Part shown: piece by piece, positions 21,767 to 34,567 of the stretch | Position numbering within the stretch: the stretch's first letter is position 1 | How the letters are laid out: each line of letters starts with the position of its first letter | Assembly: GCA_964200875.1 (NCBI GenBank) | Contig: CAXNDA010000001.1 | Span: forward strand, 1 to 35,267 | Reading direction: 5' to 3' | DNA from: Chloroflexota bacterium | Lineage (GTDB): Bacteria > Chloroflexota > Dehalococcoidia > SHYD01 | DNA length: 35,267 bases | The notes under the pieces: generated by a model | What the model saw: only the letters and a program-made list of their open reading frames with translations | Told to the model about the DNA's origin: nothing | Databases searched by the model: none | Translations under genes and position numbers: made by a program

Positions 21767-22333
21767 ATGCCGGGTAAGCAGCTTCTCTCCTCCGACGACA
21801 TTCGGCGCGCGCTCGTTCGCATTGCGCACGAGGTGCTGGAGCGCAACCACGGGGCCGGCACGCTGGTCTTCCTGGGCATGCAGACCCGTGGGGTGCCGCT
21901 GGCACATCGACTGGCCACGCTGGTCAAGGAGTTCGAGGGGGTGGAGGTGCCGGTGGGGTCGCTCGACATCTCGCTCTATCGCGACGACCTGGCCCAGCGC
22001 CCGCGTCCCTCGCTGCAGCAAACGCGCGTGCCGATGCCGGTGACGGGTCAGACCGTGGTGTTAGTCGACGACGTACTCTTCACCGGTCGGACTGTCCGCG
22101 CCGCGCTCGACGCCATCGCCGACCTGGGCAGGCCGCGCGCGATTCAACTTGCGGTGTTGGTGGACCGCGGCCACCGGGAGCTGCCGATCCGGGCCGACTA
22201 CGTGGGCAAGAACGTGCCCACCGCCCAGGACGAAGCGGTGGAGGTGCACCTGCGTGAGGTGGACGGCGAGGACGTCGTGACCATCGCCGCTGGGCAGGGA
22301 GCACCGGTTCCAGCCATGGGTAGGGAGGCCTAA
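21767..22333 (+). CDS. pyrR: Bifunctional pyrimidine operon regulator / uracil phosphoribosyltransferase PyrR
   Basis: Motifs: [62 protein letters not shown] (PRPP motif). GGGAG lies 5 nt upstream of the ATG at 21767; the track start is the GTG at 21761. Confidence 0.9.
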
Positions 22334-22336
22334 CCC

Positions 22337-23344
22337 ATGGCGGACACGATCGCACAGCACGTGGCACCAGCGAACCAGGCCGCACCGGCGCCGGGGGGGC
22401 TTCAGCACCAGCACGTGCTGGACCTCAACGACTGGAACAAGGAGGACATCGACCTTGTGTTGCGCACCGCCGACGGCATGAGGGAGGTGCTGCAGCGCGA
22501 TATCAAGAAGGTGCCGACGCTGCGGGGCAAGACCGTGATCACGCTGTTCTACGAAGCCTCGACCCGAACCCGGATGTCCTTCGAGCTGGCCGGCAAGCTG
22601 CTGAGCGCCGACGTCATCAACCTGACCGCCAGCACCAGCAGCACCACCAAGGGCGAGAGTCTGGTGGACACGGTGAAGACAATCGATGCGATGGCGCCCG
22701 ATTGCATTGTGATGCGACACCCCAGCTCGGGGGCCCCCTACTTGGTGGCGCAGCAAGTGCGGGCGAGCGTGGTGAATGGCGGCGACGGTTGGCATGCCCA
22801 CCCGACCCAGGCACTGCTCGACATGTACACCATTCGCGAGCACCTGGGCGGTCTCGCGGGGCTGAAGGTCGCCATTGTCGGCGACATTTTGCACAGCCGG
22901 GTTGCTCGGTCCGACGTCTGGGGCCTGCAGGCTGCCGGCGCACAGGTCACGCTGTGCGGCCCCGCCACCCTGCTGCCGCGCGAGTGGGCCCCTGACCGCG
23001 ATGTGGCCGCCACCGGGTTGCCGCCCATCACCATTACCTGGGACATCGAGCAGGCGTTGGCTGACGCCGATGTGGTGATGGCGTTGAGACTCCAGAAGGA
23101 ACGGCAGGAGGGCGGCCTGCTTCCCAGCATCGGCGAGTACATTACCGACTTCCAGATCACGCCCAAGCGGCTGGCGCTGGCGCGCGCCGGCGCGCTGCTG
23201 ATGCACCCAGGCCCCGTCAACGAGGGCATCGAGCTGGCGTCGGAACTGGTGCGGGGCGCTCAGTCGGTTATCGACACCCAAGTGACCAACGGCGTGGCAG
23301 TGCGCATGGCGCTGCTGTACCTGCTGATCGGCGGCCCGCAGTGA
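22337..23344 (+). CDS. pyrB: Aspartate carbamoyltransferase catalytic subunit
   Basis: Motifs: TLFYEASTRTRMSFELAGKLL, IVMRHP, HPTQALLD, MHPGPVNEG. Confidence 0.92.
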   Translation: MADTIAQHVAPANQAAPAPGGLQHQHVLDLNDWNKEDIDLVLRTADGMREVLQRDIKKVPTLRGKTVITLFYEASTRTRMSFELAGKLLSADVINLTASTSSTTKGESLVDTVKTIDAMAPDCIVMRHPSSGAPYLVAQQVRASVVNGGDGWHAHPTQALLDMYTIREHLGGLAGLKVAIVGDILHSRVARSDVWGLQAAGAQVTLCGPATLLPREWAPDRDVAATGLPPITITWDIEQALADADVVMALRLQKERQEGGLLPSIGEYITDFQITPKRLALARAGALLMHPGPVNEGIELASELVRGAQSVIDTQVTNGVAVRMALLYLLIGGPQ

Positions 23345-32445: not shown

Positions 32446-33798
32446 ATGGAACCCAACGCGCACGAGGCGTTCGAGCGCATTCGCGCTGAACTGGAAGAGG
32501 GGCGTGTGGCAGCGGCGGTCGCGCTGCTGCAGGCGCAGCACCCGGCCGACGCCGCCGATGTGCTGCGGGCACTCGACGAAGAAGACCGCGTGGTTCTGAC
32601 CCCGCTTTTGGGGCCCCAGACCATCGCCTCTATCGTCCAATACCTGGGTACCGAGGATGCCGCCGATCTGGCGAGCCGGCTGGACCCCGCCATGGCAGCA
32701 GAGGTGCTCGATCACTCAGAGCCGGACGTCGCGGCCGACGTATTGGGCTATATGGACTCGCTGCAGGCCGCCGAGGTGCTGGGGCGAATGACCACCGCAC
32801 AACGGGTCGGTCCGCTGCTGCTCCATGAGGACGACAGCGCCGCCGGCGTTATGACGCCAGACTTCATCAGCCTAGAAGCCGGCATGACCGTAGACGAAGC
32901 GCTGCAGTACTTGCGCGCCGCCAAGCCCTCCTCGGCCAGTGCGTACTACATTTACGTTGTCGATGCCGATCGTCAGCTGCTTGGCAGCGTCAGCCTGCGC
33001 ACGCTCGTCGTTTCGGGGCCGCGGGTAACCCTGCGCTCCATCATGAACCCCGAGGCGATTTCGGTACCGGCGGGCACCGACCAAGAGGAAGCCGTCCGCC
33101 TGATGCGCCATTACGACCTGCTGGCGCTACCGGTGGTCGATGACAGCAACCGGCTCATCGGCGTCATTACGCCGGAGGACATGGCCGATGTCATGGACGA
33201 AGAGAGCACCGAAGACATGTACCGGTTGGCCGGTATCCCGAACGAGGAACGGGCACTGGGACCCGTACGGGAATCACTACGGCGTCGGGTGCCCTGGCTG
33301 TTGGTCAACCTCTGTACGGCGTTCCTGTCGGGTTACGTCGTGTCCCTGTTCTCTCACACCATCGAGCAGCTTTCGGCCATCACCATCTTCATGCCGGTGG
33401 TAGCAGGGCACGGCGGGAACACCGGAACCCAGGCAGCGACGATCATGGTGCGCAGCTTGGCCCTGGGCGAAGTAACCTCCGGCGACACGCGCAGAGTGTT
33501 GCAGAAGGAGATAGCGTTCAGTCTGATACATGGCACTCTTGCCGGTGTGCTCGCGGGCGCCCTCGGGTTGATCCTGATCGGGAACCCCTGGCTCGGCCTC
33601 GTGGTGACCATGGCCATGTTCGGCAACATCATCTTGGCCGGCTTCGTGGGGTCGCTCATGCCCATGTTCTTGCGGATGGTGGGCCTTGACCCAGCGCTCA
33701 TGTCTTCCATCTTCCTGACCACCTTCACCGATATCGGCGGCTTCTTGTTATTGCTCGGGCTGGGGACGGCAATGCTCTCCCGGATCACGGGAGGCTAG
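32446..33798 (+). CDS. mgtE: Magnesium transporter MgtE
   Basis: 450 aa. The N-domain is acidic and helical. A CBS pair follows (VMTPDFISLEAGMTVDEA; LALPVVDDSNRLIGVIT). The TM domain carries FMPVVAGHGGNTGTQA and FTDIGGF. Confidence 0.9.
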   Translation: MEPNAHEAFERIRAELEEGRVAAAVALLQAQHPADAADVLRALDEEDRVVLTPLLGPQTIASIVQYLGTEDAADLASRLDPAMAAEVLDHSEPDVAADVLGYMDSLQAAEVLGRMTTAQRVGPLLLHEDDSAAGVMTPDFISLEAGMTVDEALQYLRAAKPSSASAYYIYVVDADRQLLGSVSLRTLVVSGPRVTLRSIMNPEAISVPAGTDQEEAVRLMRHYDLLALPVVDDSNRLIGVITPEDMADVMDEESTEDMYRLAGIPNEERALGPVRESLRRRVPWLLVNLCTAFLSGYVVSLFSHTIEQLSAITIFMPVVAGHGGNTGTQAATIMVRSLALGEVTSGDTRRVLQKEIAFSLIHGTLAGVLAGALGLILIGNPWLGLVVTMAMFGNIILAGFVGSLMPMFLRMVGLDPALMSSIFLTTFTDIGGFLLLLGLGTAMLSRITGG

Positions 33799-33799
33799 T

Positions 33800-34567
33800 C
33801 TGAAGCTGGTCAACGCGCCCGTTGTTTCGAATCAGGCCGCATACCCCGGCGTGAACCTGATGTGGTTGGACGCTCCTGAGCTGGCGTTGAACGCCCAGCC
33901 GGGACAGTTCGTCATGCTCCGGTGCAGCGATACGTTCGACCCGCTGTTGCGGCGGGCGCTCAGCATTCACCGCATCCACCCGGAGCCCGGCCGCATCGCC
34001 GTCCTATACAGTCTTGGTGGCCCGGGTACGGGGTTCTTGCAGCGGCGGGTGCCGGGAGACACCGTCGATGTACTTGGACCGTTGGGCCAGGGGTACACCG
34101 TGCGTGCGCAATCACGAAATCTGCTGCTGGTGGGTGTGAGTTGGGGGCTGGCGCCGCTCATCGCCCTGGCCGAGCAGCAAGTATTACACGACCGTCCTGT
34201 CACGCTGCTGGCGGGCGGCGCCACCGCCGCGCAGGTGCCCCCCAGCGAACTGGTGCCCCCCCAGGTGGAGTTGCTGGCCGCGACTGCCGACGGCAGCCTC
34301 GGCCATCACGGCGAGGTCACTGACTTGGTGAAGGACTACTGGACCTGGGCCGATGACGTGTTCGCGTGCGGCTCGATGAGCTTCTACCGCCAGCTTTCCC
34401 ACGCTGTTGAAGGCGCCTGGCCCCGCAAGCGCATCCAGATTCTGGCGGAAACACCTATGGCCTGTGGGGTAGGGGCGTGCTTCGCCTGCACGCTGGAAAC
34501 ACGGCGGGGACTCCTAATCGCATGCCGCGAGGGCCCCAAGGCCTATCTTGATGACCTTTTGTTCTAG
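33800..34567 (+). CDS. pyrK: Dihydroorotate dehydrogenase electron-transfer subunit PyrK (start uncertain: CTG at 33800 preferred, GTG at 33851 is the first canonical start)
   Basis: Motifs: PGQFVMLRC, RRALSIH (FAD motif), and the Cys cluster MACGVGACFACT...IACREGP. The frame is open upstream of 33851 and encodes LKLVNAPVVSNQAAYPG, which resembles the usual PyrK N-terminus. GGGAGG at 33789-33794 lies 5 nt before the CTG. Confidence 0.8.
   Translation: MKLVNAPVVSNQAAYPGVNLMWLDAPELALNAQPGQFVMLRCSDTFDPLLRRALSIHRIHPEPGRIAVLYSLGGPGTGFLQRRVPGDTVDVLGPLGQGYTVRAQSRNLLLVGVSWGLAPLIALAEQQVLHDRPVTLLAGGATAAQVPPSELVPPQVELLAATADGSLGHHGEVTDLVKDYWTWADDVFACGSMSFYRQLSHAVEGAWPRKRIQILAETPMACGVGACFACTLETRRGLLIACREGPKAYLDDLLF

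What the first reader, a model, noticed from the sequence alone, without database searches (positions are those of the whole stretch)
21767..34567. Pyrimidine operon carrying five kinds of passenger genes, with carA and carB split 2.4 kb apart
The gene order is pyrR, pyrB, GNAT, pyrC, carA, then the reverse-strand MNT and HEPN pair, then GDPD, Cys-phosphatase, a small ORF, carB, mgtE and pyrK. The Bacillus-type order (pyrR-pyrB-pyrC-carA-carB-pyrK-pyrD-pyrF-pyrE) is still recognisable. Non-pyr genes sit at three junctions, and they are welded in by 1-4-nt gaps or overlaps (23341-23344, 23946-23949, 28275/28277, 28807-28810, 29127/29131, 32442/32446, 33798/33800). The two CPSase subunit genes therefore sit in different transcription units, unless there is read-through across an antisense toxin-antitoxin pair. 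pyrD, pyrF and pyrE are absent downstream of pyrK.
Basis: partly seen in the sequence, partly recalled or inferred. Interest (0 to 1): 0.6.

Follow-up and report, generated by a model that had tools for sequence, protein, structure and literature searches.

The report
Pyrimidine operon riddled with passenger genes
In this uncultured Dehalococcoidia bacterium the pyrimidine-synthesis operon has picked up seven unrelated genes, mostly at a seam between carA and carB that collects accessory and toxin-antitoxin genes across the whole class; this is a clear case of known operon plasticity, not a new mechanism.

Summary
The window is a whole contig of a 56%-complete Dehalococcoidia MAG. It carries pyrR-pyrB-[GNAT]-pyrC-carA-[HEPN/MNT antisense]-[GDPD-phosphatase-small ORF]-carB-[mgtE]-pyrK, with the stated 1-4 nt junctions. 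A second MAG of the same genus has the identical order, so this is not an assembly chimera.

The split of carA and carB is not special to this genome. In 54 of 74 Dehalococcoidia loci, more than 400 nt of lineage-specific cargo lies between carA and carB. The other pyr junctions are mostly tight.

The passengers differ in age:
- GDPD, the small winged-helix protein and mgtE are family-level. PTP (the phosphatase) and GNAT are genus-level. All are under purifying selection (dN/dS 0.04-0.20).
- The HEPN/MNT core is only 43-50% identical between congeners and has sharp homology borders, so the cassette was swapped. The toxin's ATG is ACG here.

A PyrR box occurs only in the pyrR leader, never before carB. 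pyrD, pyrF and pyrE are dispersed in the whole family.

My verdict is a new variant of a known kind, of modest interest.

The parts
21611..21704 (+). PyrR-binding leader RNA: binding hairpin with TCCAGTGAGGC, followed by a second hairpin
   Evidence: Rfam RF00515 matches full length at 34.9 bits (gathering score 54), E 0.059. This is the only exact motif copy in the window. The same motif is found upstream of pyrR in 59/75 related loci.
21761..22333 (+). pyrR (regulator / uracil phosphoribosyltransferase)
   Evidence: Pfam Pribosyltran. NCBIfam PyrR equivalog NF003547, 257.4 bits against a cut-off of 230.
22337..23344 (+). pyrB (aspartate carbamoyltransferase)
   Evidence: Pfam OTCace_N and OTCace.
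23353..23441 (.). REP-type palindrome between pyrB and the GNAT fold. It belongs to a dispersed repeat family and lies inside the longest GNAT ORF.
   Evidence: Two inverted arms. Fold energy -70.2 kcal/mol, z -5.57. At least 30 copies of the arm motif occur in the MAG.
23341..23949 (+). GNAT acetyltransferase, a genus-level passenger. The fold begins near 23446.
   Evidence: Pfam Acetyltransf_1, 4.9e-18. Present in G001 (71% identity, dN/dS 0.20, dS 0.98) and at 41% identity at the same junction in L020.
23946..25397 (+). pyrC (dihydroorotase)
   Evidence: Pfam Amidohydro_1 and DHOase. Its ATGA start overlaps the GNAT stop.
25557..26687 (+). carA (CPSase small subunit)
   Evidence: Pfam CPSase_sm_chain and GATase.
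26726..26750 (+). REP-family arm in the convergent carA/MNT spacer
   Evidence: Exact motif match. The spacer folds at -41 kcal/mol, which is no better than shuffled sequence (z -0.5), and there is no U-tract.
26764..27105 (-). MNT minimal nucleotidyltransferase (antitoxin-like), intact GSx10DxD motif
   Evidence: Pfam Polbeta/NTP_transf_2. NCBIfam MntA 43.4 bits, below the cut-off of 60. Motif ILYGSCATGTQHEGSDIDL.
27081..27455 (-). HEPN (toxin-like). The homologous start codon is ACG here (ATG in G001). The first canonical start, GTG at 27371, gives only 96 aa.
   Evidence: Pfam HEPN PF05168, 1.8e-13. Frame translation. Alignments with G001.
26815..27438 (.). Core of the TA cassette, which has no nucleotide homology to the same slot in the congener (swapped cassette)
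   Evidence: blastn identity is 86.7% up to 26814 and 90.7% from 27439, with only an 85-nt piece at 72% in between. MNT and HEPN amino-acid identity is 50% and 43%, with dS saturated.
27490..28275 (+). GDPD glycerophosphodiester phosphodiesterase, a family-level passenger
   Evidence: Pfam GDPD, 1.2e-38. At the same place in G001, G002, G004, G005, G007, L100 and L047. dN/dS 0.18.
28277..28810 (+). Cys-based (HCX5R) dual-specificity-type phosphatase, a genus-level passenger
   Evidence: Pfam Tc-R-P/DSPc/PTP-SAK. Motif VHCRQGVGRSG. Found only in the window and G001. dN/dS 0.13.
28807..29127 (+). 106-aa winged-helix protein directly upstream of carB, a family-level passenger
   Evidence: No Pfam or NCBIfam hit. 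Only 9 homologues at the sensitivity of the word-index search of 5.8 billion proteins. AF2 pLDDT 88.8. Best folds are MarR/Fur/DtxR-type winged helix-turn-helix (wHTH), TM about 0.5. dN/dS 0.14.
29131..32442 (+). carB (CPSase large subunit)
   Evidence: Pfam CPSase_L_D1/D2/D3 and MGS.
32446..33798 (+). mgtE Mg2+ transporter, a family-level passenger
   Evidence: TIGR00400, 297.5 bits against a cut-off of 232.75. Present in G001, G002, G005 and G007, with an 85-aa remnant in G004. dN/dS 0.036.
33800..34567 (+). pyrK (DHOD-B electron-transfer subunit), probable CTG start
   Evidence: Pfam DHODB_Fe-S_bind. The N-terminal alignment with relatives places their GTG/ATG start at this CTG.

Best explanation
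This is the PyrR-led pyrimidine gene cluster of a Dehalococcoidia lineage. Unrelated genes have accumulated in it by repeated insertion at permissive seams, above all the carA|carB junction. That junction behaves as a long-lived accessory and toxin-antitoxin hotspot across the class.

Shown:
- The cargo is layered by age. GDPD, the small winged-helix protein and mgtE date to the family. GNAT and the phosphatase are seen within the family only in this genus (a 41% GNAT homologue sits at the same junction in the distant locus L020).
- All of these passengers are kept under purifying selection and have been co-inherited with the pyr genes.
- The antisense HEPN-MNT pair occupies the slot in several family and order members, but its core has been replaced by a divergent allele between congeners.
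- Its toxin gene is decaying. The start codon is lost here, the gene is frameshifted in L100, and it is absent in G003.

Inferred:
- GDPD, PTP (the phosphatase), wHTH, carB, mgtE and pyrK form one translationally coupled block, with gaps of -4 to +3 nt.
- pyrR to carA form another block under the single PyrR attenuator.
- I put about 55% on the second block being fed at least partly by read-through from the pyrR promoter across the antisense pair, and about 35% on an internal promoter alone.
- The passengers are expressed by hitch-hiking on a housekeeping operon, not because they act in pyrimidine synthesis.
For: - Gene calls and domains.
- Identical order in the same-genus G001, near-identical in L100, and partial in family genomes G002-G005 and G007.
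- Junction census: the carA-carB gap exceeds 400 nt in 54 of 74 loci (median 738 nt). By contrast the gap is at most 150 nt in 66/75 loci for pyrR-pyrB, 50/71 for pyrB-pyrC and 61/76 for pyrC-carA.
- Seam cargo families: an unknown 138-aa protein (20 loci), GNAT (9), VapBC (8), MNT-HEPN (8), GDPD, RNaseH-like, HAD and LigT-like. On a carA tree they are structured by clade.
- dN/dS against G001: mgtE 0.036, PTP 0.13, wHTH 0.14, GDPD 0.18, GNAT 0.20. Their dS of 0.29-0.49 (except GNAT, 0.98) is close to that of the core genes, 0.34-0.58.
- TA core: identity 43-50%, dS saturated, and blastn homology breaks at 26814 and 27439.
- HEPN start ATG->ACG. HEPN is a pseudogene in L100.
- PyrR box only in the leader: 59/75 pyrR leaders against 0/95 carA and 1/74 carB upstream regions.
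- Insertion of new genes into pre-existing operons and their expression from native promoters is documented (PMC1480536).
Against: - There is no transcript evidence.
- No promoter-like or terminator-like consensus site was found at either border of the TA pair, so neither read-through nor an internal promoter is shown.
- Price et al. report that insertions inside operons are much rarer than additions at the ends. Three occupied internal junctions are therefore unusual, which could instead mean that the 'operon' is really two or three units.
- mgtE and GDPD have stayed at the same places across a family, which could reflect selected co-regulation and not neutral hitch-hiking.
- Gap sizes in the census are measured between tblastn match ends and are approximate. 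The 80 public loci are the best carA matches, not a random sample of the class.
Confidence: 0.75

Rival explanations
1. Two (or more) independent transcription units. The antisense HEPN-MNT pair, with the hairpin after carA, ends a pyrR-carA operon. A separate promoter in or next to the HEPN 5' region drives GDPD-PTP-wHTH-carB-mgtE-pyrK, possibly controlled by the winged-helix protein encoded in that block. In that case carB is not under PyrR control.
For: - Head-on genes inside an operon are disfavoured.
- The carA/MNT spacer holds a REP hairpin of -41 kcal/mol.
- The seam has tolerated very different cargo for a long time, as an inter-operon gap would.
- A wHTH gene sits in the downstream block.
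- No PyrR box precedes carB in any relative, so carB may simply not be PyrR-regulated in this class.
Against: - No promoter-like site lies upstream of GDPD.
- Only 34 nt separate the HEPN start position from the GDPD ATG.
- The hairpin after carA is no more stable than shuffled sequence (z -0.5) and lacks a U-tract.
- In L100 only 13 nt separate the carA and MNT stops.
- Most cargo families at the seam lie on the operon strand.
Confidence: 0.35
2. The passengers were recruited for function. mgtE (Mg2+ for MgATP/NTP pools), GDPD plus the phosphatase (phosphate or glycerol-3-phosphate supply) and GNAT are co-regulated with pyrimidine synthesis because that coupling is adaptive.
For: - mgtE has kept its place between carB and pyrK across the family and is as constrained as the core genes (dN/dS 0.036).
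- GDPD plus wHTH is fixed upstream of carB in the family.
- The junctions are translationally coupled.
Against: - mgtE has been lost or reduced to a remnant in G004 and is absent in L100 and G003.
- PTP and GNAT are confined to this genus within the family.
- Other clades carry quite different cargo at the same seams, including TA pairs, RNaseH-like and HAD genes.
- No known pathway links these enzymes to UMP synthesis (my own knowledge).
Confidence: 0.15
3. Assembly or binning artefact: the MAG contig is chimeric at the passenger junctions.
For: The genome is a fragmented MAG, 56% complete, in 214 contigs. Dispersed repeats sit at two junctions.
Against: - An independent same-genus MAG is collinear over 20538-26814 and 27439-34568 at 87-91% nucleotide identity, with every passenger in place.
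- L100, from another assembly, shares most of the order.
- GC3 and dS of the passengers match those of their neighbours.
Confidence: 0.01

Closest known systems
Bacillus subtilis pyr operon (pyrR-pyrP-pyrB-pyrC-pyrAA-pyrAB-pyrK-pyrD-pyrF-pyrE) with PyrR-dependent attenuation (established knowledge; Rfam RF00515)
   Same: pyrR comes first. The order pyrB-pyrC-carA-carB-pyrK is the same. A PyrR-box hairpin lies in the 5' leader.
   Different: There is one detectable PyrR site instead of three. pyrP is absent, and pyrD/F/E are unlinked. Seven non-pyr genes are inserted at three internal junctions. The Rfam score is below the gathering threshold (34.9 against 54).
Insertion of new genes into pre-existing operons (Price, Arkin & Alm 2006, The Life-Cycle of Operons, PMC1480536)
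   Same: Lineage-restricted genes are placed next to native genes and are presumably expressed from the native promoter. Some operons evolve much faster than others. Insertions can break an ancestral pair, as ptr did in recC-recB.
   Different: That study found internal insertions to be much rarer than additions at the ends. Here three internal junctions are occupied, and one of them is a class-wide hotspot.
HEPN-MNT toxin-antitoxin modules, e.g. type VII HepT/MntA (NCBIfam NF047752; established knowledge of the Shewanella and Aphanizomenon systems)
   Same: A small MNT nucleotidyltransferase with the GSx10DxD motif is paired and overlapping with a small HEPN protein. The pair diverges quickly, the cassette turns over, and the toxin decays first.
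   Different: The HEPN belongs to Pfam PF05168, not the DUF86/HepT family. MNT scores below the MntA cut-off (43 against 60). The gene order is HEPN then MNT. The HEPN start codon is lost in this genome. Activity has not been tested.
Core-gene-flanked accessory/defence hotspots in bacterial chromosomes (general concept; also earlier scan notes e1-1530106 and e1-2169577 on carA|carB in other Chloroflexota)
   Same: Conserved flanks (carA, carB) enclose cargo that differs between lineages and is rich in TA pairs.
   Different: The flanks are the two subunit genes of one enzyme inside a biosynthetic operon. Much of the cargo is stable within clades and under purifying selection, not shuffled genome by genome. 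Unlike the case in note e1-1530106, carB here has no PyrR leader of its own.
Other pyr/car clusters with intervening genes: Thermus ZO5 pyrR-pyrB-bbc-pyrC, Mycobacterium tuberculosis pyrC-Rv1382-carA, Pseudomonas aeruginosa carA-orf-carB, Neisseria gonorrhoeae carA/carB spacer (recalled from memory; not retrieved with the paper tools)
   Same: Unrelated ORFs or repeat-rich DNA are tolerated between pyr or car genes, including between carA and carB.
   Different: Those cases involve a single insert. Here several junctions are occupied at once, and one insert is an antisense TA pair.

Membership tests
PyrR-regulated (Bacillus-type) pyr operon | A PyrR protein encoded at the head of the cluster | tested here: met
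   NCBIfam PyrR equivalog NF003547, 257.4 bits against a cut-off of 230.
PyrR-regulated (Bacillus-type) pyr operon | A PyrR-binding RNA (Rfam RF00515) in the leader | tested here: inconclusive
   Full-length match at 21611-21704, but 34.9 bits is below the gathering score of 54. The core motif is conserved upstream of pyrR in 59/75 relatives.
PyrR-regulated (Bacillus-type) pyr operon | Additional internal attenuators (three PyrR sites in Bacillus) | tested here: not met
   No other RF00515 hit at E<=10 in 21400-29200. The motif is absent upstream of carA (0/95) and nearly absent upstream of carB (1/74) in relatives.
PyrR-regulated (Bacillus-type) pyr operon | Contiguous pyrB-pyrC-carA-carB-pyrK-pyrD-pyrF-pyrE | tested here: not met
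   The order is kept as far as pyrK but is interrupted at three junctions. pyrD is on C25. pyrF and pyrE lie roughly 0.5-1.5 Mb away in the complete relatives.
Type VII HepT/MntA HEPN-MNT toxin-antitoxin | An MntA-family nucleotidyltransferase antitoxin | tested here: inconclusive
   NF047752 scores 43.4 bits, below the cut-off of 60. The catalytic GSx10DxD motif is present.
Type VII HepT/MntA HEPN-MNT toxin-antitoxin | A HepT (DUF86) HEPN RNase toxin with an intact ORF | tested here: not met
   The HEPN is Pfam PF05168, with no NCBIfam hit. The homologous ATG is ACG, leaving only a 96-aa ORF from a canonical start.
Type VII HepT/MntA HEPN-MNT toxin-antitoxin | Toxicity neutralised by AMPylation of the toxin | not testable with these tools
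   Needs expression assays.
Core-gene-flanked accessory hotspot | Conserved flanking genes with cargo that varies across related genomes | tested here: met
   The carA-carB gap ranges from -10 to 6431 nt. At least 10 unrelated cargo families occupy it, structured by clade.
Core-gene-flanked accessory hotspot | Evidence of cassette exchange by recombination | tested here: met
   Sharp loss of homology at 26814 and 27439 between congeners, with flanks at 87-91% identity. dS of the TA genes is saturated.
Single polycistronic operon | One transcript covering pyrR to pyrK | not testable with these tools
The consensus promoter/terminator scan was uninformative.

The most novel reading that the evidence does not exclude
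The carA|carB seam of Dehalococcoidia is a functional 'cargo bay' and not a neutral gap. PyrR-controlled read-through from carA runs antisense across the HEPN-MNT pair, which makes TA expression depend on pyrimidine status. The lineage-specific winged-helix protein just upstream of carB is a new regulator that sets carB/mgtE/pyrK expression independently of carA.
Probability: 0.1. Interest if true: 0.55.

Novelty: new variant of a known kind. Interest (0 to 1): 0.3.

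Why it matters
This locus is a well-resolved natural example of how a housekeeping operon takes up foreign genes. It shows dated layers of insertion, purifying selection on the hitch-hikers, a swapped toxin-antitoxin cassette, and toxin decay. All of this sits between the two subunit genes of one essential enzyme.

If carA and carB prove to be transcribed separately across a whole class, that would bear on how far co-transcription is needed for subunit stoichiometry.

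For annotation, three points follow:
- carA and carB should not be expected to be adjacent in Dehalococcoidia.
- pyrK here probably starts at CTG.
- GNAT may start inside, or read through, a REP element.

Tried and rejected
- **Rfam at gathering thresholds.** Nothing was found in the window. At E<=10 only the leader PyrR site is credible.
- **Promoter/terminator scan.** There is one promoter-like site near gatB and four terminator-like sites (two of them inside the GNAT and MarR ORFs), none at the seam. All counts were at or below the shuffled expectation.
- **Is the window's small ORF a diverged copy of the 138-aa 'cluster A' protein common at this seam?** Rejected: hhalign probability 0.4%.
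- **Fold search of cluster A.** Only weak START/Bet v1-like matches with TM<0.5, so no assignment.
- **Phylum-wide carA-carB spacing with a concatenated carA/carB query.** The query worked, but the match list was truncated, so spacing outside the class could not be tabulated. It did show contiguous or fused carAB in about 30 genomes.
- **Literature.** Searches for the Thermus bbc, Mycobacterium and Neisseria precedents and for any description of the Dehalococcoidia pyr operon found nothing retrievable. Those precedents are cited from memory only.
- **Integron-cassette idea for the palindromes.** Not pursued. The repeats form a dispersed REP family with a fixed sequence, no attC-type model was available, and no integrase is nearby.
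- **Loci from the fetch from genomes.** These reached the Python box only after a later call.

Full report
**What the window is.** The window is the whole of contig C1 of a MAG of 1.58 Mb in 214 contigs, 56% complete. The best public relatives of its carA are all Dehalococcoidia/Chloroflexota MAGs. GC content is about 65%.

**Check of the observation.** The ORF table, Pfam and NCBIfam give the following genes.

| Gene | Coordinates | Note |
|---|---|---|
| pyrR | 21761-22333 | PyrR equivalog above cut-off |
| pyrB | 22337-23344 | |
| GNAT | 23341-23949 | |
| pyrC | 23946-25397 | |
| carA | 25557-26687 | |
| MNT | 26764-27105 (-) | |
| HEPN | 27081-27371 (-) | |
| GDPD | 27490-28275 | |
| HCX5R phosphatase | 28277-28810 | VHCRQGVGRSG, |
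| 106-aa ORF | 28807-29127 | |
| carB | 29131-32442 | |
| mgtE | 32446-33798 | TIGR00400 above cut-off |
| pyrK | to 34567 | |
| MarR-type gene | from 34656, running off the contig | |

- gatB and cofD lie upstream on the other strand.
- The stated junctions are exact.
- The 269-aa + strand ORF that covers the toxin-antitoxin (TA) pair has no domain and no codon-position GC signal. The - strand genes show GC3>GC1>GC2.
- There are six kinds of passenger in seven genes, not five.

**Two junctions need comment.**
- pyrK has no ATG, GTG or TTG before 33851. However, the frame is open from the CTG at 33800, one base after the mgtE stop. The residues encoded there (LKLVNAPVVSNQ...) align with the N-termini of relatives, whose GTG or ATG start falls exactly on that CTG. 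The congener also has CTG.
- The GNAT ORF reaches the pyrB stop only by reading through a 90-nt palindrome made of two inverted copies of a dispersed repeat. The motif is GGGAGAGGGCTGGGGTGAGGG, with at least 30 copies in the MAG. The palindrome folds at -70 kcal/mol, z -5.6.
  - The frame through it is open in both congeners, and each has a start codon overlapping the pyrB stop.
  - The distant homologue in L020 starts just before the fold.
  - The overlap is therefore plausible but not secure.

**Not an artefact.** The same-genus genome G001 has exactly the same order and junctions. It is collinear at 87-91% nucleotide identity on both sides of the TA core. A contig from another assembly (L100) carries carA, antisense MNT, a broken HEPN, an extra 143-aa gene, GDPD, the small ORF, carB, pyrK and MarR.

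**The wider pattern.** I mapped the window's proteins onto 98 related loci and measured the junctions.
- The carA-carB gap is at most 150 nt in only 18 of 74 loci and more than 400 nt in 54. The median is 738 nt and the maximum 6.4 kb.
- The other junctions are mostly tight (gap at most 150 nt): pyrR-pyrB in 66/75 loci, pyrB-pyrC in 50/71, and pyrC-carA in 61/76.
- The carB-pyrK gap is at most 150 nt in only 15 of 30 loci, so that junction is also often occupied.

Clustering the ORFs in the carA-carB gap and scanning representatives gives these cargo families:
- an unknown 138-aa protein on the operon strand, in 20 loci
- a GNAT, in 9 loci
- same-strand VapB-PIN pairs, in 8 loci
- MNT(-HEPN), mostly antisense, in 8 loci counting the window, L007 and L100
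- GDPD, RNaseH-like/PolB-exo, HAD and 2'-5' ligase-like genes
- a Phd/RelE-like pair in G009

On a carA tree these contents are structured by clade. One large clade carries the 138-aa protein. One has adjacent carA-carB. One carries GNAT/LigT. The window's family carries MNT/GDPD/wHTH in various combinations. The split of carA and carB is therefore the normal condition in this class, and the seam is an old, permissive slot.

**Layers of passengers.** Identity to the window and dN/dS against G001 separate three layers.

| Layer | Genes | Distribution | dN/dS and dS |
|---|---|---|---|
| Family-level | GDPD, small ORF, mgtE | GDPD and small ORF in G001, G002, G004, G005, G007, L100. mgtE in G001, G002, G005, G007, with an 85-aa remnant in G004 | dN/dS: GDPD 0.18, small ORF 0.14, mgtE 0.036. 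dS 0.29-0.49, like the core genes (0.34-0.58) |
| Genus-level | phosphatase (PTP), GNAT | PTP only in the window and G001. GNAT in the same two, plus a 41% homologue at the same junction in L020 | dN/dS: PTP 0.13, GNAT 0.20. GNAT dS 0.98 |
| Swapped TA cassette | HEPN-MNT | Core only 43-50% identical between congeners, about as far as from other families | dS saturated. Nucleotide homology stops at 26814 and resumes at 27439 |

The flanks of the TA cassette are conserved while its core is not, which is the signature of cassette replacement.

**Decay of the toxin.**
- In G001 the HEPN ATG overlaps the stop of a three-codon mini-ORF that follows a strong Shine-Dalgarno sequence.
- In the window that ATG is ACG. 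Only a 96-aa ORF from a later GTG remains.
- HEPN is frameshifted in L100, partial in G009 and undetectable in G003.
- MNT keeps its GSx10DxD motif everywhere.
- The pattern is decay of the toxin with the antitoxin surviving.

**The small ORF.** It has only nine homologues in the word-index search of 5.8 billion proteins. It models confidently (pLDDT 88.8) as a winged helix, and its best matches are MarR/Fur/DtxR-type DNA-binding domains at TM about 0.5. It is likely a small DNA-binding protein. Its target is unknown.

**Regulation and transcription.**
- The only PyrR-type element is in the leader at 21611-21704. It matches Rfam RF00515 full length but below threshold (34.9 against 54 bits).
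- Its core motif is found upstream of pyrR in 59/75 relatives, but in 0/95 carA and 1/74 carB upstream regions.
- The consensus scan found no promoter-like or terminator-like site at the seam.
- The hairpin after carA is no more stable than shuffled sequence and has no U-tract.
- In L100 only 13 nt separate the carA and MNT stops.
- Only 34 nt lie between the HEPN start position and the GDPD ATG.
- From GDPD to pyrK all junctions are -4 to +3 nt, which indicates one translationally coupled block.

I lean slightly towards read-through contributing. Most cargo at this seam lies on the operon strand, and carB has no regulatory element of its own. This is inference only.

**Missing tail.**
- pyrD is on contig C25.
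- pyrF and pyrE are not in the assembled part of this MAG.
- In the complete family genomes G004 and G005 they lie roughly 0.5-1.5 Mb from the operon.
- The short operon is therefore the family norm.

**Comparison with what is known.**
- The cluster works like a Bacillus-type PyrR-led pyr operon. It fails the tests for contiguity, for several attenuators and for the pyrD-F-E tail.
- The passengers fit the documented process of gene insertion into existing operons with expression from native promoters (PMC1480536). That study found internal insertions uncommon.
- The HEPN-MNT pair resembles type VII HepT/MntA modules. It is not a member by the available models: the HEPN is PF05168, and MNT scores 43 bits against a cut-off of 60.
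- Earlier notes of this scan describe TA islets and variable cargo between carA and carB in other Chloroflexota. They are consistent with my census but are not independent evidence. One of them reports a duplicated PyrR leader before carB, which I tested and did not find here.

**Verdict.** The feature is real and reproducible, and I have characterised it in detail. It is a new variant of a known kind, namely a housekeeping operon with layered hitch-hikers and a hotspot seam. Interest is modest at 0.3. The open point is the transcript structure across the antisense TA pair.

Noticed in passing
window 27453-27475 (- strand) and L002 about 6890-6915: In G001 a strong SD (AAGGAGG) is followed by a 3-codon mini-ORF (ATG CGG GTA TGA). 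Its stop overlaps the HEPN ATG, a termination-reinitiation layout. In the window the same T->C change destroys both the mini-ORF stop and the HEPN start.
   Followed up: partly
window 33800-33850: pyrK probably starts at CTG, one base after the mgtE stop. The CTG is at the position of the GTG/ATG start of relatives and is shared by the congener.
   Followed up: yes
window 23353-23441, 26726-26750; genome-wide: A dispersed REP-like repeat (GGGAGAGGGCTGGGGTGAGGG and variants) has at least 30 copies in the 1.58-Mb MAG. Two inverted copies form a -70 kcal/mol palindrome that lies in frame inside the longest GNAT ORF in both congeners.
   Followed up: partly
L041:11232-11648 and 19 other loci; L100:2064-2495: A conserved 138-aa protein with no Pfam family (motifs IPPR...D.DG..FG.F..Q.LN.L....L..LPG.LP) is the commonest occupant of the carA-carB seam in Dehalococcoidia. 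AF2 gives pLDDT 85 and pTM 0.83, but there are only weak START-like fold matches. Its function is unknown.
   Followed up: partly
G235, G068, G133, G227, G098 and other genomes: In several other Chloroflexota, carA and carB lie in one open frame of about 1450 aa with no stop, so the carAB gene is apparently fused.
   Followed up: no
G000 contig C115:1017-1742 (-): A second pyrK-like gene (45% identity) is present in the same MAG. pyrD on C25 has no pyrK next to it.
   Followed up: no
L003 (G004) 10822-11079: An 85-aa remnant of mgtE lies between carB and pyrK in a complete family genome. This shows that mgtE was ancestral there and is being lost.
   Followed up: partly
L002 (G001) 14014-14772 versus window 34568-34600: G001 has about 760 nt extra between pyrK and the MarR gene, so this is another variable spot at the 3' end of the cluster.
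   Followed up: no
L007 (G009) about 1200-1830: A same-strand Phd/YefM-like and RelE/ParE-like pair lies between carA and an antisense MNT. This is a third TA type at the same seam.
   Followed up: no
G007:C2:1976641-1977377, G015, G016: carA matches are split over two frames in these genomes, suggesting a frameshift or sequencing error in carA.
   Followed up: no
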